DNA of 64,000 nt from the human T2T-CHM13v2.0 reference genome, Homo sapiens, in NCBI RefSeq assembly GCF_009914755.1, contig NC_060931.1; one strand, given 5' to 3'. Positions 253 through 41,728 of the stretch are shown piece after piece; the first letter of the stretch is position 1; the number at the start of each line of letters is the position of its first letter. The position numbers and the translations under genes were made by a program. A model generated the notes under the pieces. The model saw only the letters and a program-made list of their open reading frames with translations, was not told where the DNA came from and did no database searches.

Positions 253-681
253 AGGCTGCTGCCCAGGCCCTGCCAGTGGGGAGTTCTGTGCTCTTGCAGG
301 CTCATCAATCCTCCGCATCTTCCTTGGCAGTCCACCCTACTGCCGAAAAGGGAAACCCAGAGGATTTTAACGTTATCATATAAATCACTGCGGAAGTCAG
401 TGTTTCCCGAGGCTGTCAGGCCAGGAGCGGAGAGGAGTGGCTGGCTGCTGGCTGCCTTCTGAGAAGGTGCCCAGGGCTACAAGGCAAAGGCCTGTGGGTA
501 AAGGAGAAAATTCCAGCAGGAAAGAAAGGCAGTTTGAAGAAGAGACAGTTTACCAGCTCCTATGACAAGAGCAGAGGCGGGGCCTTGGCACAGCTGAGGA
601 GGTGAAAAGGAGTTAACCCAAGTGTTCCTCCAAGTCTTCCTTCTAGAAAGGACAGGGTTCTGCCTGCCATCAGGAAGGTCA

Positions 682-940
<259 letters not shown>

Positions 941-1546
941 CAAAAATGAATCAAGTGGGGTTGTTGTCTAGCAACATATTCTGGTCCTTGAAACTATGTT
1001 AACGCTGGCCCTCTTAAGGCTTTCGGGGATTCCAAAATCTACTCAGCTACCGCCTTCTCACTATTTCTTGGAGTCGCTCCTTCTCTATCATTCTCCATTA
1101 ATATTAATTGAAGAAGTGAAAGCTGGAAGAATCACCTTCTGTCCTAGATTGTAGTTGTGTTGGAACACTGGACCAGGAGAGCCAGGCCCAACTCTGTCAT
1201 TAAGTGTTTTAGAACAGACACCTCAGTCACACAAAGTTTCTCTTGTATGTGCCCACCATAAACAGTTACTGGAGGATGACTCTCAAGGCCATTCTAGTGG
1301 CTGCTGGCAGTGCTTTTCCAGCCTGCTGCCCATAACTAAGGACTCAAGGCAGGGAAGACACAGGCACGGGGGTTATCTGAGGAGCGGGGACTGCCTCTTG
1401 CTATGCACAAGGTCAATGCGTTTTCACTGAGGTAGACCTGGCAGCTCCTAGGAGCTTCCATTGTGAAGTGGCAACACACAGGTGACTGGTCATCTGGGTG
1501 TGACCGCACAAGTCAAAGGCATTAATTGACCCCCACAGCAGCAGGA

Positions 1547-1618
1547 AGGGGTATAGCTCAGGGTTAGAGCATAAGACTGCAGACCGAGAGGCCACCAGTT
1601 TGATTCCAGATGCCCCCT
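1547..1618 (+). pseudogene. tRNA-Cys(GCA) degenerate copy
   Basis: AGGGGTATAGCTCAGGGTTAGAGCATAAGACTGCAGACCGAGAGGCCACCAGTTTGATTCCAGATGCCCCCT; GCA retained but anticodon stem, T stem and B-box are damaged. Confidence 0.85.
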
Positions 1619-1762
1619 CCGCATTTTCAATTTTGACATTTTTACATAGGTGCCCACATTTTAACTTCTTCCTTATTAGACACTTAGACACTAGGGTAAA
1701 TGTTTCATTTTTCTTTTTTTTTTTTTTCTTCTGAAACCAGCAAATGGTGAGGCTAGAATGTG

Positions 1763-1930
1763 GTGGTTCTTAACCCCAGGTATAAACTAGAATCACCTGA
1801 AGAGTCCGTAAAAGTGCCACTTCCCGGGCCCCACCCCAGACCAATTAAATCGGAACATCTAGAGTGGGGCCCAGGCTGGTGAAAGCTTCCCAGGGGGCTC
1901 TAGACTGCAGCTAAGGGCAAGACCCCGCTT
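1763..1930. mobile_element. MER5-type hAT-Charlie DNA transposon remnant
   Basis: gtggttcttaacc...tagaatcacctg...gggccccaccccagaccaattaaatcgga. Confidence 0.7.
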
Positions 1931-2007
1931 TAGCAGAGCTTCCAAGAAGCCTCCTTAGCCCAAGACTGCATTGTTCCCACTCTGCCTCTTCTTATTCATC
2001 CTTATTT

Positions 2008-2470
2008 GAACCCCGAATATCTAGAGAAAGGTCTCAGTTAATTAGGAAAGTGAATTTTGCCAAGGCTGCGGATGCACGTCTGTGACACCGCCTCAGGCGA
2101 GTCCTGACCACCTGTGCCCAAGGTGGTAGGGGCACAGCTTGGTTTTATACATTTTAGGGACACACGAGCCATCAATCAATATGTATAAGATGTACACTGG
2201 TTCCATCTGGAAAGGTGGGACAATGCCAGGCGAAGGTGGGACAACTGGAAGGTGGGAGGGGGCTTCCAGGTCATAGGTAGAGACGAAAGGTTGCATTCTT
2301 TTGCGTTTCTAATGAGCCTCTCTAAAAGAGGCAATCTGATACAGATTTATCTCATAAGCAAGCAGAGCGGTGACTTTGAATAAAATCAGGTTTGCCCTAA
2401 GCAGTTCCCAGCTTGACTTTTGCCTTTAGCTTAGTGATTTGGGGGCCCCAAGATTGATTTTCATTTCACA
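2008..2470 (-). mobile_element. MER4-family (ERV1) LTR; partial paralog at 26217-26556
   Basis: tgaaccccgaa...ggttttatacattttaggg...gcagttcccagcttgactt...tttcaca. Confidence 0.8.
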
Positions 2471-3434
2471 CTTATGTGGACAGCACTTAAAACTAGACCA
2501 GAACAGCATCTTCCAGGAACAAAGCCTCTTTCTGCATTTCCTAGTTGTACCCCTTCTGGATCCAGTCATTCTGCCTGGGATGGGGTAGTACCGGTCTTCT
2601 ATTTCCAAGGCAAACCACCAAGATCTATTGCTCAATGAGTAAGCCCTTATAAGGCCAAGACAGTTTGCAGAGGATGAAATGTCAACATGTTAAAGTATAA
2701 GTAAAAGTTCTACGTTGTGTTCAGATGTTCCAATTATCAACGGCAATTTTATGTCACAGTTAAGCTTTAAAGGCGAACTTCTGCAGAAGGGATCACTGAA
2801 TTATATCAACCATCTCAAAAACTAGAGGATGTCATGGCGTTCTATGCTTTAGAGAACAAATAGCTTTTTTGACACAAATCTTAAAATTCATGGAGGTTCA
2901 GCTATACAGCATAGAATTCAGAAGCACAATTCATGATTTTTAGTATCCCTTATACTAATCATGTTTTATGAACCTTTTTAAAAAGTATCTAAAATACATT
3001 TAATAATTCAGATTTATGTACACAACAGAAGTTTATATTTTAGATAGGTTAAAAACATGTTCCTGTAATAAAACTATCTCAAAGCAAGAAAGTCTTACTA
3101 TCTTTACATTGAATGGCAGGAAAACACAACAGAGAAGCAGGCATTGAAGACAGAGCCTGGTCAAGTGTAGTGTCACTTGAGGCTCTGTCTAATTTGATCA
3201 TTTAGCAAATGGCGCTTTGCTCTACTCCTCTGAGTTGAAAATATTCTGCATCCTGTGACTCTCCTTATTAGTATAAGATGTAGTGGCCTGAAAAACAGAG
3301 CTTCTTTTATTTTCAATGATGTGCTGCATAATTTCCTATTCATTAAAGTAGATTCCTTTTGTTAACAAGAGATGTGAACTTTTTATTTAGTACTCCCTGC
3401 CAACCCCTCCAAAAAAAAGTGGCATTGGTAACTC

Positions 3435-3565
3435 AAAGGATAAATGCTAGAGGGGATGGGCACCCATTCCCCATGATGAGCTTATTTCACATTGCATGCC
3501 TGTTTCACAACAGTTCATATACCCCGTAAATATATACGCTCACTAGATACCCACAAAATCTTAAG
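3435..3565 (+). mobile_element. L1M 3'-end fragment (paralog 27865-27990)
   Basis: ggataaatgctagaggggatggg...cattgcatgcctgt...tacccacaaaa. Confidence 0.75.
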
Positions 3566-5474
3566 GTTTTTAAGAAGTAGCTTTTGCTGTTCCAGTTTCA
3601 CAAACACTTAGAGCTTTGGCCTAGAACTTGGGTACTTGCCCTTTTCCCGTCCCTGCCCTCCAATGCCTTCTATTAGTGGAAACGGTCTCTCGGGGCAGTC
3701 TCCTTCCTGTATCCCCATTACTGTTTCAGCTCCTCCACCCAAGCCCGCCAGCCCTCCAGCTACTCTGTAAACAGTCTCCTTCCTCCTTAGCCTTTCCCTG
3801 CAAGTCTGCCTTTTTATCCATCCTTGTACACCTGAAGGCCAGCTTTCCCCTGAAGCCATCCCTCCCCTTCAACCTCTGGAAGGGACAGGGCAGGGTCACC
3901 TTCTCAGCCTCGTTCTCCACGTTGCCCCCAAACTCCAGCTCCTCCACCATCTCTCCATGCTTCTCCTCTCTCAAAGCCATCTTCTTTCACCACTCCCTCC
4001 TCTCACCATTCATGTCTTCTCTGACATACGGGACTCCACAAACAGTGGACACTTTTAGAACCAGGCTAACAATCTTATTTTCCTCACCGCCCTCTCCTTC
4101 TGTCCTCAGGAATGTCAAAACACCATGGCAATATGCTTCCAATGATAAGGCCTCTTGAGATTTCCATCCTGTTGCCTCTAAGAATGTTCACAAACTCCAC
4201 TCACGGCGGCTCTCAAGGGGTGTAGTGAGGCACAGATTCAGCATTTTCCACTAGTGTCTTCTACCGTGCTTCTTGGTTATCAGCTGGGCACATGGCTTCC
4301 CAGAAGGAAATCTGCATTTCCCAGACCCTCTTGGAGCTGTGAGGCTACAGGCAGTAGTCTGGTCAATGAGATGCAGGTGAAAGTGATGGGTGTCCTTACA
4401 GGAAAGACTTGTCTTTTCCATCTTTCTGCTGCCTGGGAGGTCGATGAGATGCCAATGTGGGTGATGGCATGCTGGAATGAAAGCCAAGCCGGCCAGACAG
4501 CCAGAAAGAAGAACTCGGGTTCTTGACCCTATGGAAAGCCATGCCTGGACCACCTAGCTGTGGACTTTTAAGTGGTAGCTTTTAAGCTTCTAGTTTGTTT
4601 GCTTCTTTCCATTTTGCTATAATCCTTTGTTATTTTGGTTGTTCAACGTTCATTGCCAAACTTGATCATCACTTGTTCCCTTTCCAGATCTTAGAAAACT
4701 CCTTCAATGACACCTCTTTTGATGTTTACATGTACTTACTGTTACAGAAAACGGTTCATTATCCTCATTTTGACCTTAATCTTGTCTACCTCTCTCTGTT
4801 CCCAAGACCCCAGAGCCACCTTGGGGCTCAGCTATCTGCTTGCCTATTATGGACCCCATGTTTGGCCTCTCAGCATGATTCCAGCTCCTTTGAGGGCTTG
4901 GCCTGTGGTCTGTATACCCTCATGGGCCCTTCTGCTTCCGCAGATACACTCGCCATTGGCCTTTCCCACCTTTGCTCTGGGGGCGCCAGTCTTTGGTGGA
5001 GTAAATTGTACAGCCAGGCAAATGGTCCCACTGCAAGTCTACACCAGTTTCACCTCAACCAGTGCCTCTCTCTAATGAGCAATGATTCTATTCCTTTCTA
5101 ATTCACCTCTTCTCCATTTCCCACAGTGCCTGGTTCACGCTTTGCCCTTCTTCCCAAGTAATGATTCCCACCCTACCTCCTTTATTCTCTTTGGATGACC
5201 TGTTTTCTACCTGACTGAGAAGACCAAGGTACACAGTCCCCTCAGCATCCTCTGCTTCTCTGCATCTTCACCTTCTCCTCAACCCCTCCAGGGTAAGAGA
5301 CAAAGCCTGGTTTTAACCAATTCCCTGCCAATGGATATTTAGATGGTCTCCAGTGTTTGCTGTTAGGAATTTAAAAACTGCATTCCATGAATCTCCACAT
5401 ATATGTGTCTTCATGCAATTATAGGAATATTTTTGAAGGACAAATTCCTATAAGTGGTACTCTGTAGAGAATCT

Positions 5475-5840
5475 TTTTGTTTCTAACTTTATTTTAGGTT
5501 CAGGGGTACACGTGCAGGTTTGTCATATTGGTAAATCATGTCATGGAGATTTGGCGTACAGATTATTTCGTCAGCCATGTACTATGCATATGTATTTTTT
5601 CTGATCTTCTCTCCTGTCACCCTCAAGTGCAAGTGTGTAGTGTTCCCCTTCTGTGTCCATGTGTTCTCATCATTTAGCTTCCACTTGTGAGAACATGCAG
5701 TATTTGGTTTTCTGTTCTTGTGTTAGTTTGCTAAGGATAACGCCCTGCAGCTCCATCCATGTTGCTCCAAAGGACATGATCTCGTTATTTTTTACGGCTG
5801 CATAGTATTCCATGGTGTGTATGTGCCACATTTTTAAAAG
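5475..5840 (-). mobile_element. L1P 3'-end fragment
   Basis: ttttattttaggttcaggggtacacgtgcaggtttg...gagaacatgcagtatttggttttctg...ggctgcatagtattccatgg. Confidence 0.85.
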
Positions 5841-6276
5841 ACTATTATTTTTTGAGTATCTTTTTTTTTAACAAAAGAAATTTGCTTTTCATTTGACAAA
5901 TTATCACGAACAGTATTCTATGTCAAATACAAGTCTCCAGACATAGCCACTGGGTCTCCTTTCAGTGCAGGGAAAGGTGGTGTCACCTAGTTACAGTTCT
6001 GTCCCCAGCCTAGCACACCTCACATGATGTTCAACAATTGCTACTAAGAGAATTATCTGGATGACTTGAAGGGTCTCTCCATTTATAAAGGTCAACAAGC
6101 CCACCAGGGTGACCTTAGCCAGAAGTGATGATGGAGAAAGAAGTATTAGTGACAGGAGGGAGGCCAGAGTTCAGAGAAACAGAACTGGCCTGGACATCCA
6201 AACCGGCAGAGCTGGGTCTTGGTCTTGGTGTGTCGACACATGAAAATGGTGTTAATTACACTGTCCTCCTATGACT

Positions 6277-6348
6277 GGGTGTATGGCTCAGGGGTAGAGA
6301 ATTTGACTAGAGATCAAGAGGTCCCTGGTTCAAATCCAGGTGCCCCCT
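6277..6348 (+). tRNA. tRNA-Cys-derived gene with AGA (Ser) anticodon
   Basis: GGGTGTATGGCTCAGGGGTAGAGAATTTGACT[AGA]GATCAAGAGGTCCCTGGTTCAAATCCAGGTGCCCCCT; 5 differences from 33561-33632; A- and B-boxes retained; TTTT at 6355-6358 and 6361-6364. Confidence 0.9.
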
Positions 6349-9067
6349 ACCCTGTTTTACTTTTAATCACCAAAGTGGGTCCTGGGTCATAAGCTCCACC
6401 CAATCCACCCACTTGGGGAAAAATGACACAGCCTATCTAATCCCTGATGCACAGCATCTCTGAAGTGCAGACTCAATAGTCCTCAAATGATTTTATGGAC
6501 TTTAAAGTTTGTAAGACACAGACCTCTGCCTACTGCAGCCCTCTGGGTACCACTCCAGCACTTTTGCAGAGTAGTCCAAAATCTCCCTAGGGACATCCAC
6601 GTGATCCCGAAGAGGGCTGGGCCATGTCTCTAAGTCCTGCTGTATTTTCCACAGCACCCAGCTTCCACTGTGGCACAGGAGAACCTGAAACAGCCACAGT
6701 CTCATGCCCGCCTTCAATGGGCATGAGAAATCTAATGAGCTTAGATTTCTGAGCTTAGTGTGCTGCACCCTGGACTTTGGCTCTGGGCCCTCAGGTTCTG
6801 GATTTCCCATCTGGGGCTGCTGCAGACTCACACCCTGGCCTACCCAGACCAAGGACTGGGGAAAAGCAGGATTCTGGGAGGCTCTGTGAGACTGTGGGCA
6901 AGGAGCGAGATGATAGAGGAAGTCAGCTGGGACTACCCAGAGGACTGACCTGAAACCATCAACCTCTTCTCTCTCCTCCACGCAGACAGATACAGATCAT
7001 GGGCTCCAGCAAGGGAAAGGAAGCTGGAGTCAGATTCCAAAATCAGTAAATAAAAATAAGAATAGGTAACGGGCAAGCCGATTGGAACCTTTTGGTCTGT
7101 CCCCTAAGGCTCATCTCATTATTATGTGATGAAAACCTTGCAGTCTGTAGCCTTTTGGGTGAAAGGAGCACACCGCGCGTAGTAACTGTGGTCTCTCGAG
7201 CCCCCTCTGATGGTGGTAGCTAAACAAAGCAAGATGCAGGATGTGTTCTTTTCTGGGATATTCTGATGTTACCCAAATTACTGGATCTCCAGAAGCTTCA
7301 CAGATGCAGCAGAGCCACCAATAATCCCAAATTATGTGGATATTTCCCACTCCTCCATGTAGTTTCCAGGCAAATAGCTGAAGGGCCTAATATGGGAAAT
7401 CGGGCAGAAGGATTCACTGTCCGTGACTGGATATTTTGGCAGAGTCCTTTTCTCAAGCTTGGCTTCCCTATCATCAAGGGAGGCAGGTTCTTTGAGCAGA
7501 TTCAGACCTGGGGAATGGGTCAGAGGTCAGGAACCTCCATTGTGCCAGCTATGGTGGTAGTTCAGGTCTACACGTCTAGGGGACCACGATGGGCTCCCCA
7601 TTCTCAGGCCGAAAATCCTTACCACTGATGAGTCACAGCCAAGACCTGTGTGGCACAGACCACGGAATAACACCCAAACTTCACTTTGGGTTAAAATATC
7701 ACAGTGCTTGGCCTCTGACACCCTAGAATCCTCCCAGCCCCACTGAAATCAGGGGCTCCCTTTCCACTATCATCCCTCCCACCAGCATCTCTGTCCACAG
7801 ACAACAGCTACCAGAACTCTTTTTACGAATGTAGAAGCTCCACACACCTACGTATTTTTCAAGCCAGGTTAAGTCACACGTGATAAATCCACTCTAACTT
7901 ACCTACCCCCTGAAGCGTATGGATTCTTTCTACATTATAGCAAGAAATTCCTAGTATCTCAAATGCATTTAGAATTGGCCTCCTGTGAATCCAGGGTTAG
8001 ATCCACCAATGGAGCAAACAGTTTTATCCCAGCTGCTCTAGCTATGGTATCTTAAATAGAATTTTAACTGGGTACACTCCTAATAAAAAATTCAGGCTCA
8101 TTTAAAATTACAGTCTTTCTACTTTATGAAGTACTCCAACAATCTGTATCCACACATGGTCTTGAAGTTTTTGCTGACATACATTAGCCAGTTGAAAATG
8201 ATTTTGGTATCTGAGTCTTTGCCTCCCAGCAACTGGTGCCCAGGCTCAACTGAGATCTTACTCTCACTGTAGGTCAAGAGACCATGAGGGTGGGGAACCC
8301 AATCTCTTGCAGTGAAAACCCTTCCATCTGGGCTGGTCGGCTTTCAGGCAGGAAGAAGCGGCAGGCTTGGAGATTAGGTAGGGTTGGTGATTTGGGATAA
8401 ATCAAGTTTTCCAAATGCTCCCATCAATCCATCTTACAATTCCTGAAGTTCTACCCTGAAGTTCTACCCTCTTAATCACTGACCTATTTTCAGCTGGGAG
8501 ACTGGGGGAAGCTGCCAATTCCATGGACATCAAAGTTTGGCAAGCCACAGGGATCAGCCCTGGCTCTCATTTTCAGCTGTTTCACTTATTCGGTGGCAGG
8601 AGATCAGAGAGTTTTGTTATACAGTCAGAAAAAGGCCTGTGTTTTTGTCCATGTAGAACACATCATACAGGGTGACACGTGAGCTATTTGCCTTAAAACT
8701 GGTAGGACCAGCCATCCTGCCCAGAGGCCACTTATAATCTGGGAACTACAAATTGGTCCTGATGGAACTGCAGGCAAAAGTTACTCAACTTTTCTACAGT
8801 CTGATATAGGCTTCTGGATTTCTATCCCCATAAACTACCTAGATTATCATTACCTTCAAGTTTAATGAGGCCAGATTTCCAATTCACATTCCCTTCACGT
8901 TTCTGTAATCACTTGTTACACATCCCTGGTACCAGCAAGGGCACTTTGATTAAAGAAGACGTCATCTAAGGTTACTGTAGACACGGGGGCAATTGCTCAC
9001 AGGATGGCAAGAAGCTCATGCACCTTAGGGAAGCCTGCAGAGCCAGGCTCGTCAAATAGGCAGGACC

Positions 9068-9542
<475 letters not shown>

Positions 9543-9594
9543 TCACAGTCTTGTTTAGGAGAATATAGTTGGCCAAACTGAAGCCATTACCAAT

Positions 9595-10318
9595 TGTGCT
9601 GGTTAGTTTTATGTGTCAGCTACGCACAGTGGCTCACGCCTATAATTCGAGCAGTTTGGTAGGCTGAGGCATGTGGATCACTTGAGGTCAGAAGACTGAG
9701 ACCAACCTAGACAACATGGCGAAACCCCATCTCTACAAAAAATACAAAAATTAGCTGGGCGTGGTGATGCACACCTGTGGTCCCAGCTACTCGGGAGGCT
9801 GTGAGCCCAGGAGATGGAGACTGCAGTGAGTTGCGACCACGCCACGACACTCCAGCTTGGGTGACAGAGGGAGACCCTGTTTGTCTTAAAAAAATTTTTT
9901 TTTTCCTTTAATGTGTGAACTTGGCTAGGCCATGGTGGCCAGGCGTTTGTCCATAGCAATCTGGATGCTGCTGTGAAAGTATCTTTTAGATGTGATTAAC
10001 ATTCAATCTATCGACTTTGAGTAAAGCAGATTACCCTCCAAAATGTGGGTGGGCCTCATCCGATCAGATGAAAGCCTTATGAGGAAATGTCTGCTGTCTT
10101 CTAAGAAAGAAACTTTACCTCCATGCTGTCTTCAGGCTCGAGCTGCAACCTCAACTCTTCCCTGCGTCTCCAGATTGCTGCCATGCCCTGCAGACATCAG
10201 ACTTGCAAGCTCCCACAATGGCATGATCCAATTCCTTAAAATCTCTATGTGCACACACACACACACACACATACAGCCCCTATTGGTTCTGTTTTTTCTG
10301 AGGAACCCTCATTCACAC
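9595..10318 (+). mobile_element. MLT2 (ERVL) LTR interrupted by an old Alu (~9617-9895); paralog 43453-44194
   Basis: tgtgctggttagttttatgtgtca...gagtaaagcagattaccctcca...gggcctcatcc...(CA)n...cctattggttctg. Confidence 0.8.
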
Positions 10319-10641
10319 ACCAACATTCAGAGGGAGGACACATCTGACCTCGATTTTTCCTTAACCAGAGACAGGATCCTGTCTTCCACCAAGACTTACA
10401 CAATTGTGAATTCCCCAAATGAGGCTTGAGATGTGCAAGAAAAAAAAGAGTTCTCCCCAGACCTGTGAGCACTGACTTAGCCTTCAAGAAACTGGTCTTC
10501 TCTAGAGCTTCCGGTGTCAGGCGAGGTTTTCTAGTGAAGACCTGACCTGCTTCCTCTCTCTCCTGCTTTGCAGAATGAATCCATGTGTGTTGAAGAACAG
10601 CTAAGAGTAGAACATCCTATCATGATCAGTGAGTGAAAAGA

Positions 10642-10953
10642 TGTTGGGAGGGAAGCTGAGGCAGGGCTTGCATGTCTGGCTAGACTTGCTGGCTCCTTGC
10701 TTCTAGCACTCCCACTATGCTAATGTTTCTCATTCACTTGATACACTGTTTCCTTTCAATCCCCACATCCTCACCACCTGTTTGAGCACCAATAAATAGC
10801 GTGTGCTCCCAATGCTTGGGGCCTTTGCAGCCTCCAGACTCGCCATGGCCCTCTGGTCCCACTTTCTCTTTCAAACTGTCTTTTTCTCATTCCTTTGACT
10901 CTGCTGGACTTCGTCACCCCCATGACCTGGTGTTGGGTCTGATCACCCCAACA
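10642..10953 (+). mobile_element. Solo ERVK LTR (LTR14-like), specific to copy A
   Basis: TGTTGGG...CCCCAACA termini, internal AATAAA, aaaga TSD; absent in copy B. Confidence 0.8.
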
Positions 10954-10966
10954 AAAGAAAACAGGA

Positions 10967-11038
10967 AGGGGGCACCTGGATTTGAATCAGGGACCTCTTG
11001 ATTTGCAGTCAAATGCTCTACCCCTGAGCTATACCCCC
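10967..11038 (-). tRNA. tRNA-Cys(GCA) variant (G37>A, G53>A)
   Basis: revcomp GGGGGTATAGCTCAGGGGTAGAGCATTTGACTGCAAATCAAGAGGTCCCTGATTCAAATCCAGGTGCCCCCT; T4 follows at 10961-10958. Confidence 0.92.
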
Positions 11039-11824
11039 ATGTAATTGCCTGTCTCCAATAAGAACTATAAACCTGTATGGCCACACCCTGACTGTCACCA
11101 TTATGAGATATGTACTTGCTTCGTCACGATATACCCCCTTCCTACTCCACACCTGCCTGCCAGCTCTACTTACAACCAGCATCCTTCCTTCTCCAGTGTG
11201 TGACTGAAGGCAGGGACATTAAAATCACTGCGGTTTGCAGCCAGAACATCCTTCAGACTCGCCTAGAACAGAGGGACTCAAAGAACTGGTTGCTCAACAG
11301 ACCCTTTAAAGGTGAGGCTGGGCTGGGCAGAGCTGGGTAAAAGCAAAAGTTCTTGAGCCCCACTTGAGGACTCCTAAGCCACACTATCTGGGAAAGGACC
11401 TAGGGACATGTGTGCTTCTAACCAACTCCCTGCACCATTCTGACTTACAGTTTGGAAACACTGGTTTAATCTGTTCCCTTCCATGGTATAGATCTAGAAA
11501 AAATGACAGTAATTAAAATCATGCCCAAACAAAACACACTTGATTAATGACCAAGTCATGACTAGAATCCACATTCATGATAAAGGGCCTCTTTGCACTG
11601 AACACTCTGAGGCAGGAGTTGAACTGCCTTTTCCTTTCCTCTTCTTTCCTCTTCTCCTCCATTCGCTGAATCCCACAATGTGTCAGATAAAAGTAGTGAC
11701 CAGAAGACAAGATCCAATCCATGGAAAAGTGGAGAAGTGGAGAATCAGAGAAATCTGTGGTCACAGACATGACACAGGACGGAGTGACTGCAAACACGTG
11801 GGCAGAGTGAAAGGAAGGGCCAAC

Positions 11825-11891
11825 AAGTGACACCATCTTGAACCAGGGACTAGATATGCAGCCAGATGCTCTGCCCCCAAAAGGTGCCCTC
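11825..11891 (-). pseudogene. Highly decayed tRNA-Cys relic
   Basis: ttgaaccagggacta---gatatgcagccagatgctctgcccc aligns to antisense tRNA-Cys ttgaaccagggacctcttgatctgcagtcaaatgctctacccc. Confidence 0.65.
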
Positions 11892-13002
11892 TCAACTGTT
11901 TAGACTTTCCTGATTGACACTGTTTCACCTATGTTCCCACGCCCAAGGATCTAATAGACATTGTAATTTCTCATCATTTTCAGTGAACCACTGGCAACTG
12001 ACCTCCTTCAGACAGACCTCTATCTGGCTTTGAACTTACCCTGTCCTTCCCCATGGACCTATCAGAGGACTTCTAGAAATCTTTCCTGCCTAGAATCCTG
12101 CAGCCTCCTCCTCAGTCCCTGTGTGGGGCAACAATTTGGAGAACTCCTGTTTAGAGCTGGAAGCTTCCTCTCTCCTTCTCTCCTACTTTAGTTTTATCTT
12201 CTCTTACCTACATCCCATACTCTCTCTCCACTTCACTTTCACCCTCTGCACAGTGGGGTTACTTTGGGCCCTGGCCTACATTTTTTGACTGTCTTCTCTT
12301 CTTCCCTCTCCTCAGTTACTAGTCCTTCCCTTTAAAAGGGAGACACCACCTTAACAGAGGGGACCCAGCCCCATGCTAGCCCCAAACCATTAGCTCAGCA
12401 CAACTGGCAGAGCCAGGACCAGGCACGAAGGCTATTTGAGCTCTGAAGCTCAGGCCTCCAGTATCCTGAATTAAGACAAGGATCTCTCCCCATCAGGTTG
12501 GCAGAAATGTAATTATAGAAACTGGGCAGACATAAAGAAACAGGTTCTTCATAGCTAGCTGCTGCTAGGCGCACCTGGTGGCACTGGGGTACTTCTGGGG
12601 ACAGCAATATGGCAATGGCAGAGACAAAATCAAGCAAGCCTATGATATGGTGAGGCCACCGCTGGGTCTGTTTTCTGGAGTAGCATCCCCACAGGGGCAC
12701 AAAAAGAGACAGGCCCAAGAATGATCACTACGGTATCGCTTGTGAGTGTGAAAAATCAAAAAAAGCTTAAGTGCCAATCAGTGGAGGAATGGAAAATAAG
12801 TTACAATATAGTTGCTTCTGGAATATTAAGCATCTGTTAAAAGGAATAAACTTGATCTACATGTATCAACATGGATAGGTCTGAAATACAGAATAATGAG
12901 TGATAAATATAATGACATCTATGTAATGTTTCAAAACACAAAAATCCATATATTGTTCACAACTACCAATGCACACAGTAGACATTTTAAAATGTGGATA
13001 GA

Positions 13003-23060: not shown

Positions 23061-25236
23061 TGTAACTCATCCCCATCTGTGTTTGAAGTGGAATAAATAC
23101 TTCGAACAATAGGAATATACCAGTAGATGCTACTTAGCATTTTCTACCATGTGTTTATTACAGTAAATATTTTTTAATGGCATGAGCAATGGAACGCAAT
23201 ACCATCATTGAACATTATTTTGGGGAAGAAATTGGTATGGACAGATGTTCATGATATTTTAAGAGAAAAAGCCTGTCCAGAACGATCCTGTCTTTGTTTT
23301 AAAATTAACACTTTAAAACAATATATGACATCATATGTAGTATTATATACCGTGTATATGTGTATCTATAGTTTTGAAAGTTTGGAAGCATACAAATGTC
23401 AACATAGACTAAGTAGTTTTCTTTAATAGAGCACAGGCCGTTTTTACGCATTTTATTTTCCCAATTCATGTTTTTATTTTTCAATAACAAGGATAGTATT
23501 TTTAAACGAGAGAAAAATAAACATTTAAAAGTCCTTAAGAGGCTGAGGATGGAGGGCGCCTTGGACGGGGGCCCCCACGTGGTTACAGAGGCGCATTGCC
23601 TTTCAGATTCCTGGGCTGAGTGGGGCTCTTTCCAGCTGGGGAACCTGCGACATGTGATGCGGGGTCTATGGGGCTTGCCAGGCCTAGGGACCGGGATCTG
23701 AACATTCTCCCCTAGTTTCTCTTCATCAGCGTGGGCTGTACGTTCAGTGTATAAAAATGGAATTGCCCCAGGAGTCGTGTGGGCGAAGACCTTACTCATA
23801 GTGTTGCCGATGCTCCTGCGTCCGACTTGCTTCTTTGGGTCGCAGGCACAACCTAGCTATTCTCTGATGCCTCTCATCTCTGGGCGATTGTCCCTCAAAT
23901 GAGGGGGTTTAGAGATTTCCTGCCTGGAGCCTTTGGCATCATTTTGTCTTTTGGAGTAAATCCGACAAAGGGTAAAATCACCCTACTCACCCCGTGAGCT
24001 GTAGGAGAATGTCCCTGGACCTGCCCCAGGTTTTTCCTGTTTTTTTTTTTTTTTTCCCTTCAGCTCTTCCACGTGATTCCTTCCCCTCTCAAGTAACACA
24101 TCTCCTCTCCTAGGGGTGGACTCGTGTTTTATGGGTCTGCAGCTTGTGTAATCAGGAAGAACATTATTAAGTAAAAGCCTCATAAAATTACAAATTTAGA
24201 AGGAGGCACAGAGCTGGTGCAGGAAAGGCACTCTGAAGCTTCCTTAGCTTCACTGTAATGTCCTGGATTAAAAAAAAAAAAAAAGCCAGCCTTGTCTAGG
24301 CTGGGACATGTGCACCACGGAGATTGTAGGGGGAACTGGGAATCAGGAGACCTGTCAGTTCTGTCATTAACCAGTCGAGACCCTTGGGCAAGTCAGTCAG
24401 CCCTTGCCTCACATGTAAAGTGAGGAGATTGGAGTAGATCATTCTGCAAATGTCCCTGAGTCCAGCCTTCCTTTCACCACTTGATACGGGACCCAGTAGA
24501 AGACCACCGCTTCCTCTCTCACTGTGGCCTTTTTGCGGGTCACCCTGCATGATAATTTACCTCTATTATCAAGACAACAATGTGTTGGCAAGTCCCTGCC
24601 ATGTTGCCTGGAAGAGCTACTCCCGGATTACCTTGGAAAAGGGCCTTATTCCTGTTTGAGGAGACAGAGGTGTCATCTCCATGGCAATATGGCCCCTAGG
24701 GGAACTAGTGCTTTCATGGTGTGTCCCATGGTGTGTGCTGGAGGATGTGAGCAGTGGGGCAAAGTGCGGTCTGGACTTAAGTGACCATCTGTGTGTCCCT
24801 TGAAGGAATTTAACATCATAGAAATCACTGTGGAATTCAGTGTTTCCCAGGTCCTCGGACCAGAAGTGGAGAGGAGTGACTGGCTTTGCTGCCTTCTGAG
24901 AAGGTTGCCAGGGCTACAAGGCAAAAGGCCTGTGGGTAAAGGAGAAAATTCCAGTAGAAGGAAAAGACAGTTCACAGGAAGGGACAGTTTACCAGCTCCT
25001 GTGACAAGAGAAGAGGCGGGGCCTTGGCACAGCTGAGGAGGTGAAAACGAGCTTACCCAAGTGTTACTCCACGTGTTCCTTCTAAGAGGGACAGGGCTCT
25101 GCTTGCCATCGGAAAGGTCACGTGGGAGGCTGGACGCAGTGGCTCATCCCAGAGCTTTGGGAGGCCAAGGCAGGAGGATCGCTTGAGGCCCCGAGTTTCA
25201 GACCAGCCTGGGCAACATAGTGAGACGTCTGCTCTA

Positions 25237-25470
<234 letters not shown>

Positions 25471-26025
25471 CTAGGTTAACATTGGTCCTTTTAAGGCTTT
25501 TGGGGATTCCAAAATCTACTCAGCTACCACCTTCTCACTATTTCTTGGAGTTGCTTCTTCTCCATCATTCTCCATGTATATTAACTGAAGAAGTAGAGCT
25601 GGAAGAATCATCTTTTGTCGTAGATTGCAGTTGTGTTGAAAGTGCCCTGAATGGAATACTGGGCCAGGAGAGCCAGACGCAACTCTGTCATTAAGTGTGT
25701 TAGAAAAGACACCTCAGTCACATGGAGTTTCTTTTGTAGGTGCCCACCGTGACAGGCACTAGAGGTTGACTCTGAAGGTCATTCTAGCAGTGCTTTTCCA
25801 GGCTGCTGCCCCAACCCAGGGACTCACGGCAGGGAAGACACAGGATCCGGGGTACCTGAGGAGGAGACACTGCCTCTTGTTATGCACAAGGTCAATGAGT
25901 TCTCACTCAGGCGGGTCTGGCAGCTCCTATGAGCTTCTATTTTGAAGTGGCAACTCATAGGTTCCTGGTAATCTGGGTATGGCTATAAAAGTCAAAGATA
26001 TTAACTAACCCACACAATAGCAGGA

Positions 26026-26098
26026 CACAGTATAGCTCAGGGGTAGAGTATTGGACTGCAGATCCAACAGGACACCAGTTCAAATACAGATAACCCCT
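26026..26098 (+). pseudogene. tRNA-Cys(GCA) degenerate copy, paralog of 1547-1618
   Basis: CACAGTATAGCTCAGGGGTAGAGTATTGGACTGCAGATCCAACAGGACACCAGTTCAAATACAGATAACCCCT; acceptor stem destroyed. Confidence 0.82.
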
Positions 26099-26587
26099 CT
26101 GGCTTTTCAATTTTGACATTTTAAATAGGTGCCTACATTTTAACTTCTTTTCTATTAGACACTAGGGTAAAGATTTCATTTTTTCTGGAACCAGCAAATG
26201 GTGAGGGTAGAATGTGGTGGTTTTATACATTTTAGGGAGACATGAGACATCAGTCAATATGTGTAAGATGTACATTGGTTAGTTCTGGAAATGTGGGACA
26301 ACTTGAGGTGAAGGCAGGACAACTGAAAGCAAGGAGGGGGCTTCCAGGTCACAGGTATATAAGAGACAAATGGTTGCATTCTTTTGAGTTTCTGATGAGC
26401 CTCTCCAAAGGAGGCAATCAGATATGCACTTATCTCAGTGAGCAGAGGGGTGACTTTGAATAAAATGGGAGGCAGCTTTGCCCTAAGCAGTTCCCAGCTT
26501 GACTTTTCCCTTCAGGTTAGTGATTTGGGGGCCCCAAGATTTATTTTCCTTTCACATTTAAGTGTACAGTACTTGAAACTGGACCTG

Positions 26588-26912
26588 GGGCTGGGTGCGT
26601 TGGCTCACACCTGTAATCCCAGCACTTTGGGAAGCCAAGGTGGGCGGATCACGAGGTCAAGAGTTCGAGACCAGCCTGGACAACATGGTGAAACCCCATC
26701 TCTACTAAGAATACAAAAATTAGCCGGGCGTGGTGGCACGTGCCTGTAATGCCAGGTACTGTGGAGGCTGAGCAGGAGCATCTCTTGAATCTGGGAGGCA
26801 GAGGTTGCAGTGAGGTGGAGGTTGCAGTGAACCAAGATTGCGCCATTGCACTCCAGCCTGGGCAACAGAGCGTGACTCCGTCTTGGAGAGAAAAAAAACA
26901 AACAAACAAAAA
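26588..26912 (+). mobile_element. AluS, specific to copy B
   Basis: TSD-like aaactggacc; empty site near 2490. Confidence 0.9.
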
Positions 26913-29900
26913 CTGGACCAGAACAGCATCTTCCAGGAACAAAGGCTGTTTCAGCATTTCCTAGTTGTCTTAATTTGTCCCCTTTTTCATCCAGGCATTC
27001 CCCCTGGGATGGGGTGGTATTGGTCTTCTAATTCCAAGACAAACCACGAGGATTTATAGCTCAGTGAGTGAGCCCATATAAGGCCAAGAGAGTCTGCAGA
27101 GGATGAAATGTCAACAGGTTAAAATATAAGTAAAGTTCCATGTTGTGTTTAAGTTTTGTAACTATCAAAAGCAATTTTATGTCATATTTAAGCTTTAAAA
27201 GCAAACTTCTGCAGAAGGGATTATTGAATTATATCAACCATCTCAAAAGCTAAAGGATGTGATGGCATTCTATGCTTTGGAGAACAAACAGCTTTTTTGG
27301 TACAAAATGTCAAAATTCATGGAGGTTCAGCTATACAGCATAGAATTCAGAAGCACAATTCATGATTTTTAGTATCCCTTACACTAATCACCTTTTATGA
27401 ATCTTTTTCAGAACTACCTAAAATATGTTTATTAATTCTTCTGATTTATATGAACAACAGAAGTTTCTACTTTAGATAGGTTAAAAAGAGGTTCTTGTAA
27501 TAAAACTATGTGACAGCAAGAAAGTCTTACTATCTTTACACTGAATGGCAGGAAAACACAACAGAGAAGCAGGCATTGAAGACAGAGCCTGGTCAAGTGT
27601 AGTGTCACTTGAGGCTCTGCCTAATTTGACCATTTAGCAAATGGTGCTTTGCTCTACTCCCCTGAGTTGAAAATATTCTGTATCCTGTGACCTTTCTTTT
27701 TAGTATAAGATGTAGGAGCCTGAATAACAGAACTTCTTTTATCTTTGGTGACGTGCTTTATAATTTTCTTTTCCTTAAAGCAGATTCCTTTTGTTAACAA
27801 AATATTCGAATTTTTTATTTAGTACTTTTTTTTTCCTCCAAAAAGTGGCATTGGTAACTCAAACAAGAAATGCTAGAGGGGATGGACACCCCAATCCCCA
27901 TGATGAGCTTATTTCGCATCGCATGCCTCTTCCAAAACAGCTCATGTGCCCCGTAAATATATATACCACTTTGTACTCACAAAAGCTTACATTTTTTAAG
28001 AAGTGGCTTTTGCTGTTCCAGTTTCACACTTAGAGCTTTGGCCTAGAACTTGGGTACTTGCCCCTTTCCCGTCCCTGCCCTCCAATGCCTTCTGATAGTG
28101 AAAATGGTCTCTTGGGGCAGCCTCCTTCCTGTATCCCCATTACTGTTTTAGCTCCTCCACCCAAGCCCGCCAGCCCTCCAGCTACTCTATAAACAGTCTC
28201 CTTCCTCCTTAACCTTGCCCTGGGAGTCTGCCTTTTTATCCCTCCTTGTACATCTGAAGGCCAGCTTTCCCGTGAAGCCATCCCTCCCCTTCAACCTCCA
28301 GAACTGAGAGGGTGGGGTCACCTTCTCAGCCTCATTCTCCATGTTGCCCCCAAACCCCAGCTCCTCCACCATCCCTCCCTGCTTCTCTCTCAAAGCCATC
28401 TCCTTTCACCACGCTCTCCTCTCCACATTCATGTCTTCTCCACAAACCTAGTGGAAATTTTTAGAACTAGGCTAACAATCGTATTTTCCTCACCTCCTCC
28501 TGCTTTCATCCTCGGGAATGTCAAACTCCAAGGTAATGTGCTTCCAATGCTAAGGCCTCCCAAGATTTCCATCTTCCTGGCTCTAGGAATGTTCACAAAC
28601 TCCGTTCACTGCGGCCTTCAAGGTGTGTGGTGAGGCAGAGGTTCAGAGTTTTCCACCAGTGTCTTCTACCCTGCCTTTTGGTTATCAGCTGAGCACATGG
28701 CTTCCCAGAAGAAAAACTGCATTTCCCAGACCCCCTTGGAGCTGTGAGGCCATAGGCATAAGGCTGGTCAATGAGATGCAGGTGAAAGTGATGGGTGTTC
28801 TTATATGGAGAGGCTTGTCTTTCCTCCTTCCTACTGGCTGGGAGGTCGATGAGATGCTAATGTGGGTGATGGCATGCTGGAATGAAAGCCAAGCCAGCCA
28901 GACAGCCACAAAGAAGAAATCGGGTTCTTGACCCTATGGAAAGCCATGCCTGGACCACCTAGCTGTGGACTTTTATGTGGGAGAAAAGGAAGCTTCTGGT
29001 TTGTTTGCTTTTGTTTTGCTTCCATCCTTTGTTATTTTGGGTGTTCAGCATTCATAGCCAAACCTGATCATCACTTAAACTATTCCCTTTCAAGATCTTA
29101 GAATCAGAAAAGTCCTTTTATGACACGTTTTCTGATGTTTACATGTTCTTACTGTTACCAAAAATGTTTCATTATCCTCATTTTGACCTTAATCTTGTCT
29201 ACCTCTCTCTGTTCCCATGACCGCAGGGCCACCTTGGGGCTCAGCTATCTGCCTGCCCATTATTGATCCCATGTTTGGCCTCTCAGTCATGATTCCAGCT
29301 CCTTTGAGAGCTTGGTCTGTGGTCTATCTACCTCTCTCATGAGCCCTTCTGCTTCCGCGGATACACACGCCTTTGGCCTTTCCCACCTTTGCTCTGGGGA
29401 ACCCAGTCTTTGATGGAGTAAATTGTAGAGCCAGGCAAATGGTCCCACTGCAAATCTACACCAGTTTGACCTCAACCAGTGCCTCTCTCTAATGAGCAAT
29501 GATTCTATTCCTTTCTAATTCACTTCTTCTCCATTTCCCACAGTGCCTGATTCACACTTTGCCCTTCTTCCCAAGTAATGATTCCCACCCTACCTCCTTT
29601 ATTCTCTTTGGAAGACTTTGTTTTCTATCTGACTGAGAAGACCAAGGCCATGGAGGCCCCCCAGCATCCTCTGCTCTGCATCTTCACCTTCTCCTCATCC
29701 CCTCCAGGCTAAGAGGAAAAGCCTGCCTGCTCCTCTCTAGAGCACATCCTGTGTTCTTTATCCACCCTTTGGCTTTCCCTGGGATCTCCTTCCATTAATA
29801 TATCCTCTCTTTTTTATTGACACATTTGAGCATATTCATATATGTACTGGCCATTCATGATATACAGGGAACCCTACAGGCACATCTTTGCAGCAATTAT

Positions 29901-30099
29901 GGTGAACTGTGTGTGCTTTGATAGACATACAGGAGCCATGGAGCATGTGGCAGGGGTCCCACCCATCAGGAGGGTCAGGAGGGCTTCCCAGGAGAACACC
30001 CACCCAAGTGCTCCACTTCACTGAGACTGTGCTTGTCACAGTCCTTGGTGACCATGTGTCATGGGTGATTCTCATCTTTAATTCAAGCCCTCAGTAGCA

Positions 30100-30840
30100 T
30101 TTTTTTTTCAATCGACATTGGGGCTGTCACTCTTTTTCTGTTGTTTTCTTTGTACTTCTCTGCCACTTTTCCTCAATCTCTTTTGCTGGTTTCTCCTTAA
30201 CATCCCCATTTTTAAACATTCGAGGGCCCAGGTCTTAGTTCCTAGACCACTTTTCTTTTCACTCCCACTTCCTCAGTGCTCTCATTCCATCCTGCGGCTT
30301 TAATGGGATGATGACCCTCAAATTTATATCTTTAGCCAACACCTCCCCTTCGAACTCCAGCTTCATTTTTGACATCTCCATTAGACCATTTAACAGATGG
30401 ATTCAATTTAATACATCACAGATTGAACTCCTGACTTCCACCACCCCCTCAAATTTCATTTCTGCTGCAATGAAAATGGCCATCTCAGAGAATGGCCCCC
30501 CCATCCCGCCGGGTGCTCAGGACAGAAAACCTTGGCATTATCCTTGACTTTTCCCTTTCTCTCACACCCTGCTCTCAAATCATCAGCAAATCCTGTTCAC
30601 ACTGCTTCAAAATATATCCAAAATCTGACCACTTCTCATTGCCTCCACCATCAGACAAAGCTGAAATCATCTCTCATCCAGGTTATGGTGACAACTTCCT
30701 GAACTTGTGTCCCGGCTTCCATACATGTCCTCTAGTGCCCTCAGGCCAGCCAGAGGACGAAATCAGCTTATGTCATTCCTCTGCAAGAAATCCTCCAATC
30801 ACTCCCATCTAATCCAGAGTGGAAGCCCATGTCCGTACAC
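30100..30840 (+). mobile_element. L2 LINE remnant
   Basis: aaaaccttggcattatccttgac...atcagcaaatcctgtt...cttcaaaatatatccaaaatctgaccacttctc. Confidence 0.75.
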
Positions 30841-33560: not shown

Positions 33561-33632
33561 GGGGGTATAGCTCAGGGGTAGAGCATTTGACTGCAGATCA
33601 AGAGGTCCCTGGTTCAAATCCAGGTGCCCCCT
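33561..33632 (+). tRNA. tRNA-Cys(GCA), intact
   Basis: GGGGGTATAGCTCAGGGGTAGAGCATTTGACTGCAGATCAAGAGGTCCCTGGTTCAAATCCAGGTGCCCCCT; full cloverleaf, U73; TTTT at 33645-33648. Confidence 0.98.
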
Positions 33633-34270
33633 ACCCTGTTTCACTTTTAATCACCAAAGTGGGTCCTGGATCACATGCTCCTCTCGGGCTCTCTCTATTA
33701 ACTCAACCCTGGGCAAGATATGACCAGGCCTGCTGCCCCCTCTGCTCCTACTCCCCATCTGCTGAGCCCTCAACAGGCCCAACGAGATGCCCGCCTGCAC
33801 CCCCTCCCCCGCCCACCCCGGTCCCCGGAAATCACCCAACTGACTTCCAGTTGAAAGTCTAGCACTAAGAGGCACTAAATTTGCATCATGGACCTCTTGA
33901 CCTGCAGGCAAATGCTCTTCCTCTGAGCTAGAAACCCACTTCAGATGAGTTCCCAATGGACACTGCTTAAGGATGTCGCCTGCCCAAGGGAGGGATCCTC
34001 CTGAAACCCACAATAGTTTCTGTTTACTCCAGGTCAGGTCCCATGTCCTAGCAGACCTATCTCATACCAACCAACCCTCTCTGGCCATTGGCTCTATCCC
34101 TCTCCCACTGACCCCTCATTTGAGTCCCAGAGCCTCCTTTGTACTGTGTGGTCCATTCTCCTCCTTCTGTCTCAAGCTGAGTGCGTAAGCTTTGACATCA
34201 CTTCTTGCTGGAATGATCATCCACTACATCTCTCCTTCCTTTGCCTCTTCCTCATGGACATTTATTCTAA

Positions 34271-36302: not shown

Positions 36303-36373
36303 AGGGGACAGCTGGATTTGAGCCAGGGACCTCTTGATCTGAGTCAAATACTCTACTCCTGAGCTACACTTTC
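36303..36373 (-). pseudogene. tRNA-Cys pseudogene with 1-nt anticodon deletion
   Basis: revcomp ...AGTGTAGCTCAGGAGTAGAGTATTTGACT-CAGATCAAGAGGTCCCTGGCTCAAATCCAGCTGTCCCCT; 5' acceptor strand and B-box mutated. Confidence 0.85.
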
Positions 36374-40533: not shown

Positions 40534-41728
40534 AAAATTTGGGTACAAAACCAGAAGCTAGCTTTGACTACCTGAAACAGACAAGGTGACTGTTGTCAGG
40601 CAGTTCCTAACACTGAAAGAAAGCCTGGAACAAGAGGCTTAGGAGTTGGGCAGGATCCCAGAGGCACTTGGCAGCCAGGCTTTAGTCAGAATCACACCGG
40701 CACAACGGGCTGTGAAGAGAGACTTCACACTGTTCTGAGCATTAAGGTGTAGGGGAAAAAAGAGAGTGACTCCATACTGGATCCATGCCAGAGCTACCGC
40801 ACCAGCAAAATAAACTCTAAACTCTTTTCATTTCTGTGTCTCACTCACTTGATTACCAAAGTCTGAGTGATGAATTCCCCTACGCAAGCTCGCTGGAGAT
40901 GTCAGACAGCATCTCCATCTGCCGGAGACCCTCCATGCACCCAAGACCAGCTGTGTCAGAACAGCCAGGTGGCAGGGCTGCTTGCACTGCCCCTGCCACC
41001 AGCTGGAGGGGTTTCTCTTGCCCTAGGCCCTATACAAAGCCTTTCGGGTGGGAGCAGCACACCATGGGTAGTAACTGTGGTCTCTCAAGCCACCTCTGAT
41101 GGTGGTGGCAACCAGGGCAAGGTGCAGGATGTGGTCTTTTCTGGGATATTCTGATGTTACTCAAATTACTGGATCTCCAGGAGCTTCACAGATGCAGCAG
41201 AGCCACCAATAATCCCAAATTATGTGGATATTTCCCACTCCTCCATGTAGTTTCCAGGCAAATAGCTGAAGGGCCTAATATGGGAAATCGGGCAGAAGGA
41301 TTCACTGTCCGTGACTGGATATTTTGGCAGAGTCCTTTTCTCAAGCTTGGCTTCCCAATCATCAAGGGAGGCAGGTTCTTTGAGCAGATTCAGACCTGGG
41401 GAATGGGTCAGAGGTCAGGAACCTCCATTGTGCCAGCTATGGTGGTAGTTCAGGTCTACACGTCTAGGGGACCACGATGGGCTCCCCATTCTCAGGCCGA
41501 AAATCCTTACCACCGATGAGTCACAGCCAAGACCTGTGTGGCACAGACCACGGAATAACACCCAAACTTCACTTCGGGGTAAAGTATCACAGTGCTTGGC
41601 CTCTGACACCCTAGAATCCTCCCAGCCCCACTGAAATCAGGGGCTCCCTTTCCACTATCATCCCTCTCACTAGCATCTCTGTCCACACAGAATGGCTACC
41701 AAAATTATTTTCAAGAATGTAGAAGTGC

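What the first reader, a model, noticed from the sequence alone, without database searches (positions are those of the whole stretch)
6277..6348. Anticodon-switched tRNA: Cys body with Ser (AGA) anticodon, intact parent in the same window
Seen: flanks show this is the positional paralog of intact tRNA-Cys 33561-33632; anticodon GCA>AGA (6309-6311, two adjacent substitutions) plus G4>T, A9>G and C25>A. A/B boxes and terminator remain. Established: SerRS recognises a long variable arm (absent here); CysRS uses the GCA anticodon and U73 (U73 kept). Inference: scanners would label it Ser, but it would be uncharged, or if charged would put Cys at UCU/UCC/UCA; two broken stem pairs make rapid decay or fragment production more likely.
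Basis: partly seen in the sequence, partly recalled or inferred. Interest (0 to 1): 0.7.

Follow-up and report, generated by a model that had tools for sequence, protein, structure and literature searches.

The report
Decaying cysteine tRNA with serine anticodon
A duplicated human cysteine tRNA gene carries a serine anticodon and two broken stem pairs; published data show weak polymerase binding but almost no mature tRNA, so it is likely an ordinary, already catalogued pseudogene, and an exact copy of its first half on another chromosome likely records past germline transcription.

Summary
6277-6348 (TRS-AGA5-1) is a tRNA-Cys body with five changes (G4>T, A9>G, C25>A, anticodon GCA>AGA), intact A/B boxes and a terminator. 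Its closest sister is TRC-GCA15-1, outside the window (89% over 3 kb), not GCA9-3. It lacks both human SerRS determinants and the Cys anticodon, and the cloverleaf is predicted lost. Five changes in 72 nt fit the flank rate (3.1 expected, P=0.20). Gao 2024 source data show weak RPC1 peaks in 4 of 6 cell lists, but mature tRNA is zero in 6 of 8 libraries and at most 4.4e-7 in the other two. An exact 41-nt copy of leader plus 5' half lies on contig C23 (X) with a 17-nt target-site duplication: a tailless retrocopy that likely records germline transcription of the mutated gene. A primate Cys-GCA/Ser-AGA shift (Rogers 2014; Velandia-Huerto 2016) and this retrocopy (Noll 2015) are both already listed. 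Verdict: a weakly transcribed, likely uncharged and degraded tRNA pseudogene. One oddity is open: all five changes fall inside the retrocopied stretch, and the X target site itself reads AGA, so copying back from X is not excluded without primate orthologs.

The parts
6277..6348 (+). TRS-AGA5-1: tRNA-Cys-derived gene body with AGA anticodon
6271..6276 (+). 6-nt 5' leader that is also present in the C23 retrocopy; likely reaches the Pol III start site (inferred)
6271..6311 (+). 41-nt stretch found letter for letter at G000:C23:11624539-11624579 (L009:2040-2080); its last 5 nt are shared with the target-site duplication
6280..6280 (+). G4>T, breaks acceptor pair 4:69
6284..6294 (+). A box; includes A9>G at 6285 and still fits the type-2 promoter consensus (consensus recalled)
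6300..6300 (+). C25>A, breaks D-stem pair 10:25
6309..6311 (+). anticodon AGA (GCA in the paralogs; 6309 and 6310 changed)
6319..6323 (+). 5-nt variable loop; no long variable arm
6327..6337 (+). B box, identical to TRC-GCA9-3
6348..6348 (+). discriminator U73 (Cys type, not the G73 used by SerRS)
6355..6364 (+). two T4 runs, likely Pol III terminator
33561..33632 (+). TRC-GCA9-3, intact positional paralog (older sister unit); strong RPC1 peak in hiPSC
361..12487 (.). duplicated unit holding the gene; homologous to the TRC-GCA15-1 unit upstream (84-90% where L011 covers it, from 1812 on) and to 24804-33681 and 41038-46342 (79-95%)

Best explanation
TRS-AGA5-1 is a duplicated tRNA-Cys gene with a changed anticodon and two broken stem pairs that is weakly bound by Pol III, yields almost no mature tRNA, and is likely an uncharged, rapidly degraded pseudogene drifting without selection. 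Shown here or in published source data: duplication from the GCA15-1/GCA9-3 unit, five substitutions, intact promoter, weak RPC1 peaks, near-zero mature tRNA, and an exact 5'-half copy on C23 with a target-site duplication. Inferred: it was released from selection among about 20 redundant Cys copies; the pre-tRNA misfolds and is removed by nuclear surveillance or by CCACCA tagging (it has G1-G2 and an unstable acceptor stem); neither CARS1 nor SARS1 charges it; and L1 machinery retroposed the leader-bearing precursor in the germline, primed in the anticodon loop by a target site that matched its last five bases.
For: Substitution load matches the flank rate: 5 of 72 against 3.1 expected, P(>=5)=0.20, whereas 9-3 has 0 of 72, P=0.005. 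The cloverleaf is 12.4 kcal/mol above the MFE (2.3 for 9-3, 5.3 for 15-1) and native-pair probability is about 0 in all four arms (prediction without modifications). Human SerRS needs the large variable arm and G73; CysRS uses GCA and U73 in E. coli and yeast (PMC9976931, passages). Gao 2024 (PMC10791582; passages and supplementary rows): RPC1 peak in both hiPSC lines, HEK293T and cardiomyocytes (4 of 6 RPC1 lists, 0 of 4 BRF1 lists); hiPSC peak score 34.7/32.8 against 1692/1096 for 9-3; mature tRNA 0 in 6 of 8 libraries, 2.9e-7 and 4.4e-7 in the rest; mature/RPC1 ratio 0.002-0.004. C23 copy: 41 of 41 identical, 17-nt TSD with 1 mismatch (24 of 20000 random junctions score as high), empty site exact in 14 of 19 paralogous repeat copies. 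It ends at nt 35, the commonest end among Cys-family truncated copies (18 of 46). Velandia-Huerto 2016 regard most terminal remoldings as pseudogenes.
Against: All five changes lie in nt 1-35 and none in nt 36-72 (Fisher P=0.023; 0.051 if the doublet is one event, post hoc). Pol III binding is real and higher than at the intact sister 15-1 (7.7/5.7), so this is not a silent locus. Charging and decay were not measured. CysRS determinants were read for E. coli and yeast, not human. One breast-cancer study lists tRNA-Ser-AGA-5-1 among detected isodecoders (ratio 1.32; PMC10620816 Table 1, passage only; mapping specificity unknown). The mature/RPC1 comparison is noisy: Cys-19-1, classed 'off', has ratios above 1 (likely read spill-over), and Cys-21-1, which keeps its GCA anticodon, is as low (0.001-0.01). 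No germline or embryo data were seen. The AGA letters on C23 belong to the target repeat (11 of 19 paralogous sites), so AGA in the RNA at the time of copying is inferred.
Confidence: 0.85

Rival explanations
1. Back-copying: an older tailless copy of the intact Cys gene decayed on C23 and later served as template for the chr7 gene's 5' half (ectopic conversion or template switch). That would import G4>T, A9>G and C25>A and, by running two bases into the target site, write the AGA anticodon in one event.
For: All 5 changes fall inside the 35 copied nt, none outside. Donor and gene are 41 of 41 identical while the TSD copies differ at 1 of 17, like other copies (26 of 584). AGA is ancestral in the target repeat (11 of 19 paralogous sites). 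A 689-bp block at 95% between otherwise 79-88% units suggests conversion within this cluster.
Against: It needs an original copy ending at nt 32, but only 5 of 46 Cys-family copies end at nt 32-33, against 18 at nt 35. Interchromosomal conversion from a donor of about 38 nt with 3 mismatches is far rarer than retroposition (general knowledge). An adjacent pair among 5 changes has P=0.25 anyway. 0 of 36 plus 1 of 17 differences fit a single insertion age (per-lineage divergence mode 0.9%, interval 0.2-5.1%).
Confidence: 0.04
2. The gene is kept as a non-translational element: a source of 5' halves or fragments, or a Pol III/TFIIIC-bound chromatin element within a ZNF767P intron.
For: Reproducible RPC1 peaks in four cell lists. 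The 3' half, B box and terminator are unchanged. The retrocopy shows that a leader-bearing 5' part existed as template.
Against: An unchanged 3' half has P=0.20 under the flank rate. Noll 2015 argue that tailless copies arise by internal priming, not from cleaved RNA, so the copy does not show that a fragment existed. No fragment data were seen, and name searches found no study of this locus.
Confidence: 0.07
3. A low-level mistranslating tRNA: charged with Cys through U73 and the Cys body, edited to I34, inserting Cys at UCU/UCC/UCA codons.
For: U73 alone confers Cys identity on minihelices (PMC9976931). The gene is bound by Pol III and has trace reads in 2 of 8 libraries.
Against: GCA is a major CysRS determinant and two of its three bases are changed. 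The cloverleaf is predicted lost. Abundance is at most 4.4e-7 of tRNA, far below the study's 0.005% detection line.
Confidence: 0.02
4. A true identity switch: a working serine tRNA, as the annotation name implies.
For: Anticodon AGA; ARAGORN and RefSeq label it Ser.
Against: No long variable arm and U73 instead of G73, the two main human SerRS determinants; near-zero mature tRNA.
Confidence: 0.005

Closest known systems
TRS-AGA5-1 / tRNA-Ser-AGA-5-1 (RefSeq, tRNAscan-SE; chr7.trna12-SerAGA in hg19 tables, name match inferred)
   Same: It is this locus: hub annotation at 6277-6348; hg38 chr7:149608375-149608447, score 58.7, class 'repressed' in Gao 2024.
   Different: The name follows the anticodon; the body, flanks and discriminator are Cys.
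Primate alloacceptor anticodon shifts / tRNA remolding (Rogers and Griffiths-Jones 2014; Velandia-Huerto et al. 2016)
   Same: 'Ser-AGA - Cys-GCA' is the first alloacceptor event listed as common to both studies and appears twice in the primate tree figure. Most such events are read as pseudogenization.
   Different: I saw the label only, with no coordinates or branch; identity with this locus is inferred from the uniqueness of the Cys-body AGA arm in the human genome. It is a two-base shift (4 of 75 in Rogers).
tRNA-Tyr-GTA-11-1, Cys-to-Tyr remolded gene of the same chr7 cluster
   Same: Cys body with a changed anticodon and no mature tRNA (0 of 8 libraries).
   Different: One-base shift older than the human-rhesus split, and classed 'off' for Pol III, whereas Ser-AGA-5-1 has weak peaks.
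Tailless retropseudogenes (Noll et al. 2015; class first described by Schmitz et al. 2004 as cited there)
   Same: The C23 copy is 5'-complete with leader, ends in the anticodon loop, has no A tail, and has a 17-nt TSD with 5-nt target complementarity. Noll's table lists chrX:12060106-12060140 (hg19) from chr7.trna12-SerAGA; same chromosome, length and source, no lift-over done.
   Different: It comes from a damaged, anticodon-shifted gene and carries its three private non-anticodon changes. The target fits the TT/WAAAAWW consensus poorly.

Membership tests
Functional cytosolic tRNA-Ser | Ser anticodon | tested here: met
   AGA at 6309-6311
Functional cytosolic tRNA-Ser | Long variable arm | tested here: not met
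   5-nt loop at 6319-6323; determinant per PMC9976931
Functional cytosolic tRNA-Ser | Discriminator G73 | tested here: not met
   U at 6348
Functional cytosolic tRNA-Ser | Serylation by SARS1 | not testable with these tools
   needs in vitro charging
Functional tRNA-Cys | Anticodon GCA | tested here: not met
Functional tRNA-Cys | Discriminator U73 | tested here: met
Functional tRNA-Cys | Intact cloverleaf | tested here: not met
   two broken pairs; cloverleaf predicted 12.4 kcal/mol above the MFE
Functional tRNA-Cys | Stable mature tRNA in cells | tested here: not met
   published values read: 0 in 6 of 8 libraries, at most 4.4e-7; four cell types only
tRNA-Cys-GCA gene family by descent | Cys body and homologous flanks | tested here: met
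   67 of 72 identical to 9-3; 89.4% over 2984 bp with the 15-1 unit
Alloacceptor anticodon-shift gene | Body of one isotype with anticodon of another | tested here: met
Alloacceptor anticodon-shift gene | Syntenic ortholog in other species with the old anticodon | not testable with these tools
   no primate genomes held; the event type is listed without coordinates; human paralogs keep GCA
Pol III type-2 transcription unit | A box, B box, oligo-T terminator | tested here: met
Pol III type-2 transcription unit | Pol III occupancy | tested here: met
   published peaks read: 4 of 6 RPC1 lists, weak; 0 of 4 BRF1 lists
Tailless retropseudogene (C23 copy) | 5'-complete, 3'-truncated by 10 nt or more, 30 nt or longer, no A tail | tested here: met
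   leader plus nt 1-35; criteria
Tailless retropseudogene (C23 copy) | TSD of 8-35 nt at 70% identity or more | tested here: met
   17 nt, 1 mismatch; empty site exact in 14 of 19 paralogous repeat copies
Tailless retropseudogene (C23 copy) | 2-18 nt target complementarity, end in a loop | tested here: met
   5 nt, ending at the last anticodon base
Tailless retropseudogene (C23 copy) | Target consensus TT/WAAAAWW | tested here: inconclusive
   poor fit by eye; nick register is ambiguous within the shared 5 nt

The most novel reading that the evidence does not exclude
The serine anticodon was written by a chromosome X insertion site. An old tailless retrocopy of the Cys gene was copied back onto its chr7 source, bringing three decay mutations plus two bases of the flanking target DNA, so a retropseudogene rewrote a tRNA gene's anticodon in one step.
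Probability: 0.04. Interest if true: 0.7.

Novelty: already known. Interest (0 to 1): 0.22.

Why it matters
As it stands it matters little. It is a clean example of an annotation named by anticodon alone, and of a bound-but-degraded tRNA gene that should be left out of Ser-AGA gene counts and codon-supply estimates. The C23 copy is a useful fossil: it likely shows that a damaged, anticodon-shifted pre-tRNA was made in the primate germline, and its presence or absence across primates would date the shift. If back-copying from the retrocopy were true, it would be an unusual route to an anticodon change and would show retropseudogenes editing their source genes.

Tried and rejected
9-3 as direct parent: rejected; 15-1 is the sister. 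The adjacent double change as a special signal: rejected (P=0.25). Accelerated evolution of the gene: not supported (P=0.20). The C23 match as chance: rejected (1e-12 expected for 36 nt; TSD null 24 of 20000). The C23 match as part of a larger duplication: rejected (no extension on either side; flanks are an old dispersed repeat). A single gapped alignment of the filled site against 19 repeat copies gave ragged gaps; mapping the two flanks separately was cleaner. Dating the insertion from divergence gave too wide an interval (0.2-5.1% per lineage, against 4.3% for the duplication). Primate ortholog sequences were not found in Velandia-Huerto file 5. Rogers 2014 supplements are not held and its tables are not in the text. 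The locus is absent from the 11 Thornlow 2020 files searched, where 15-1 is called inactive (4 of 15 files not searched). Full-text searches for the locus name and recalled coordinates gave one table mention and nothing else. A search for retrocopy-to-gene conversion found no paper on it (listing only). ARAGORN's tRNA-Thr at 40941-41032 has no Rfam match and is set aside as a likely false call.

Full report
Observation. The 72 nt at 6277-6348 differ from TRC-GCA9-3 (33561-33632) at five positions only: 6280 G>T, 6285 A>G, 6300 C>A, 6309 G>A, 6310 C>G. ARAGORN names it Ser(AGA); Rfam gives 52.2 bits against 62.6-70 for the four Cys genes in the window. The A box, B box, 5-nt variable loop, U73 and two T4 runs are in place. 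A 22-nt pattern over the mutated anticodon arm matches once in the genome.

Origin. The gene sits in a duplicated unit of about 12 kb. It matches 24804-33681 and 41038-46342 at 79-95% and the TRC-GCA15-1 unit upstream of the window at 84-90%, including 89.4% over 2984 bp across the gene. In 4039 gap-free three-way flank columns, 174 differences are private to this unit, 196 to the 15-1 unit and 284 to the 9-3-side blocks, so 15-1 is the sister. At the 4.3% flank rate 3.1 changes are expected in 72 nt; five is unremarkable (P=0.20), while 9-3 has none (P=0.005). An adjacent pair among five random changes has P=0.25. All five lie in nt 1-35 (Fisher P=0.023; 0.051 counting the doublet once; post hoc). 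The cluster holds other decayed copies: four in the window and a Cys-body Tyr-GTA gene upstream.

Structure and identity. U4:C69 and G10:A25 are broken. The cloverleaf is predicted 12.4 kcal/mol above the minimum (2.3 for 9-3, 5.3 for 15-1), with native-pair probability about 0 in all arms; these folds ignore modifications and tertiary contacts. Human SerRS relies on the large variable arm and G73; CysRS on GCA and U73, shown for E. coli and yeast (PMC9976931, passages). The gene has neither Ser determinant and only U73 and A36 of the Cys set. G1-G2 with an unstable acceptor stem is the described trigger for CCACCA tagging, and defective precursors are removed by nuclear surveillance in yeast (PMC10275265, passages). 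Applying either pathway here is inference.

Expression, from published source data (Gao 2024, PMC10791582; main-text passages and rows of supplementary files 4, 5, 6, 8, 11; files 13-17 not searched, and the hits in files 1, 7 and 12 not seen). The locus has an RPC1 peak in the consensus lists of two hiPSC lines, HEK293T and cardiomyocytes, but not NPC or neurons (4 of 6), and is in 0 of 4 BRF1 lists; class 'repressed'. hiPSC peak scores are 34.7 and 32.8, against 1692 and 1096 for 9-3 and 7.7 and 5.7 for 15-1. Mature tRNA is 0 in 6 of 8 libraries and 2.9e-7 and 4.4e-7 in the others. The mature/RPC1 ratio is 0.002-0.004, against 0.06-0.07 for Cys-12, 0.27-0.40 for Cys-15 and 0.001-0.01 for Cys-21; Cys-19, classed off, exceeds 1, which warns of spill-over among near-identical Cys genes. 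One cancer paper tabulates the isodecoder (PMC10620816, one passage). Thornlow 2020 has no row for it in the files searched and inactive (PMC6961574, supplement rows).

The copy on C23. A genome search found 41 nt of window 6271-6311 letter for letter at C23:11624539-11624579; C23 is taken to be X from its number and from the Noll row. A 25-nt pattern with the private changes matches only the gene and this site. The copy has the 6-nt leader and no A tail, and is flanked by a 17-nt direct repeat with one mismatch whose first 5 nt overlap the copy's end; 24 of 20000 random junctions score as well. The flanks are an old dispersed repeat (43 other matches; family not determined by a tool). In 14 of the 19 best copies the two flanks overlap by exactly 17 nt, which is the empty site; 2 more are within one base and 3 align poorly. 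This meets the criteria for a tailless retropseudogene (PMC5322556; introduction, methods and part of results read), and that paper's table lists a 35-nt chrX row sourced to chr7.trna12-SerAGA (identity inferred, no lift-over). AGA at the site is ancestral in the repeat (11 of 19 copies), so the anticodon of the RNA template is inferred. As a control I examined 46 of the 75 genome matches to the Cys 5' pattern, leaving out 27 full-length or cluster genes, the gene itself and the C23 copy. All 46 are truncated, 36 have a TSD score of 10 or more, and ends fall at nt 35 in 18, nt 37 in 13 and nt 32-33 in 5. An AGA template gives an end at nt 35 with 5-nt priming; a GCA template would need an end at nt 32. 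This favours copying from the already mutated chr7 precursor, so the gene was likely transcribed in the germline after the changes. The age is loose: 0.2-5.1% per lineage.

Mechanism. Shown: duplication, five changes, intact promoter, weak Pol III binding, near-absent mature tRNA, retrocopy anatomy. Inferred: loss of selection through redundancy, misfolding, lack of charging, surveillance decay, and the direction chr7 to X. Confidence 0.85. Rivals: fragment or chromatin role (0.07), back-copying from X (0.04), Cys mistranslator (0.02), true Ser tRNA (0.005).

Prior knowledge. Ser-AGA/Cys-GCA is listed as an alloacceptor event common to Rogers 2014 and Velandia-Huerto 2016 and appears twice in the latter's primate tree (PMC4981973; passages and supplementary file 2 read whole); branches and coordinates were not recoverable. 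Rogers (PMC3923123; parts 2-3 of 7 and passages) counts four two-base shifts among 75; its tables and supplements were not available. SMORE (PMC5745555, passages) also reads such events as first steps of pseudogenization. I found no paper devoted to the locus or linking the retrocopy to the mutation order (open-licence library only).

Verdict. Real, annotated, already catalogued and most likely ordinary decay. Interest 0.22. The one open question, the direction of copying between chr7 and X, is settled by a primate alignment.

Noticed in passing
window 7149-7837 vs 41038-41725: A 689-bp block is 95.2% identical between units that are otherwise 79-88% alike, and only 91.1% and 89.9% to the 15-1 unit: likely a gene-conversion tract.
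   Followed up: partly
window 1548-1619 (+), 26030-26098 (+), 33879-33938 (-), 36302-36369 (-): Four unannotated, more decayed tRNA-Cys-derived copies. The first three keep GCA; the last has lost one anticodon base. 1548 and 26030 are positional paralogs.
   Followed up: partly
window 40941-41032 (-): ARAGORN calls a tRNA-Thr(GGT) with no Rfam match and no RefSeq row; likely a false call.
   Followed up: partly
L010:1078-1129 (G000:C10:6211078-6211129, -): Tailless Cys-GCA retrocopy with a 7-nt leader and a perfect 13-nt TSD; its leader is one base from that of TRC-GCA15-1 and this gene, so it may come from the same unit.
   Followed up: partly
L045-L101 (46 dispersed loci): Cys-family tailless copies end mostly at the last anticodon base (18 of 46) or two bases later (13 of 46), often with 0-8 nt leaders that could map them to source genes and so to germline-active loci.
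   Followed up: partly
L102 (G000:C7:150739933-150740006): Cys-body gene with a Tyr GTA anticodon in the same cluster; matches the published deep Cys-to-Tyr remolding and has no mature tRNA in 8 of 8 libraries, taking it to be Tyr-GTA-11-1.
   Followed up: partly
window 62743-62814 (TRC-GCA21-1): Also bound by Pol III (2.8e-4 of RPC1 reads in hiPSC) with almost no mature tRNA (at most 9e-7); it has D-loop and T-stem changes, so it may be a second bound-but-degraded gene.
   Followed up: no
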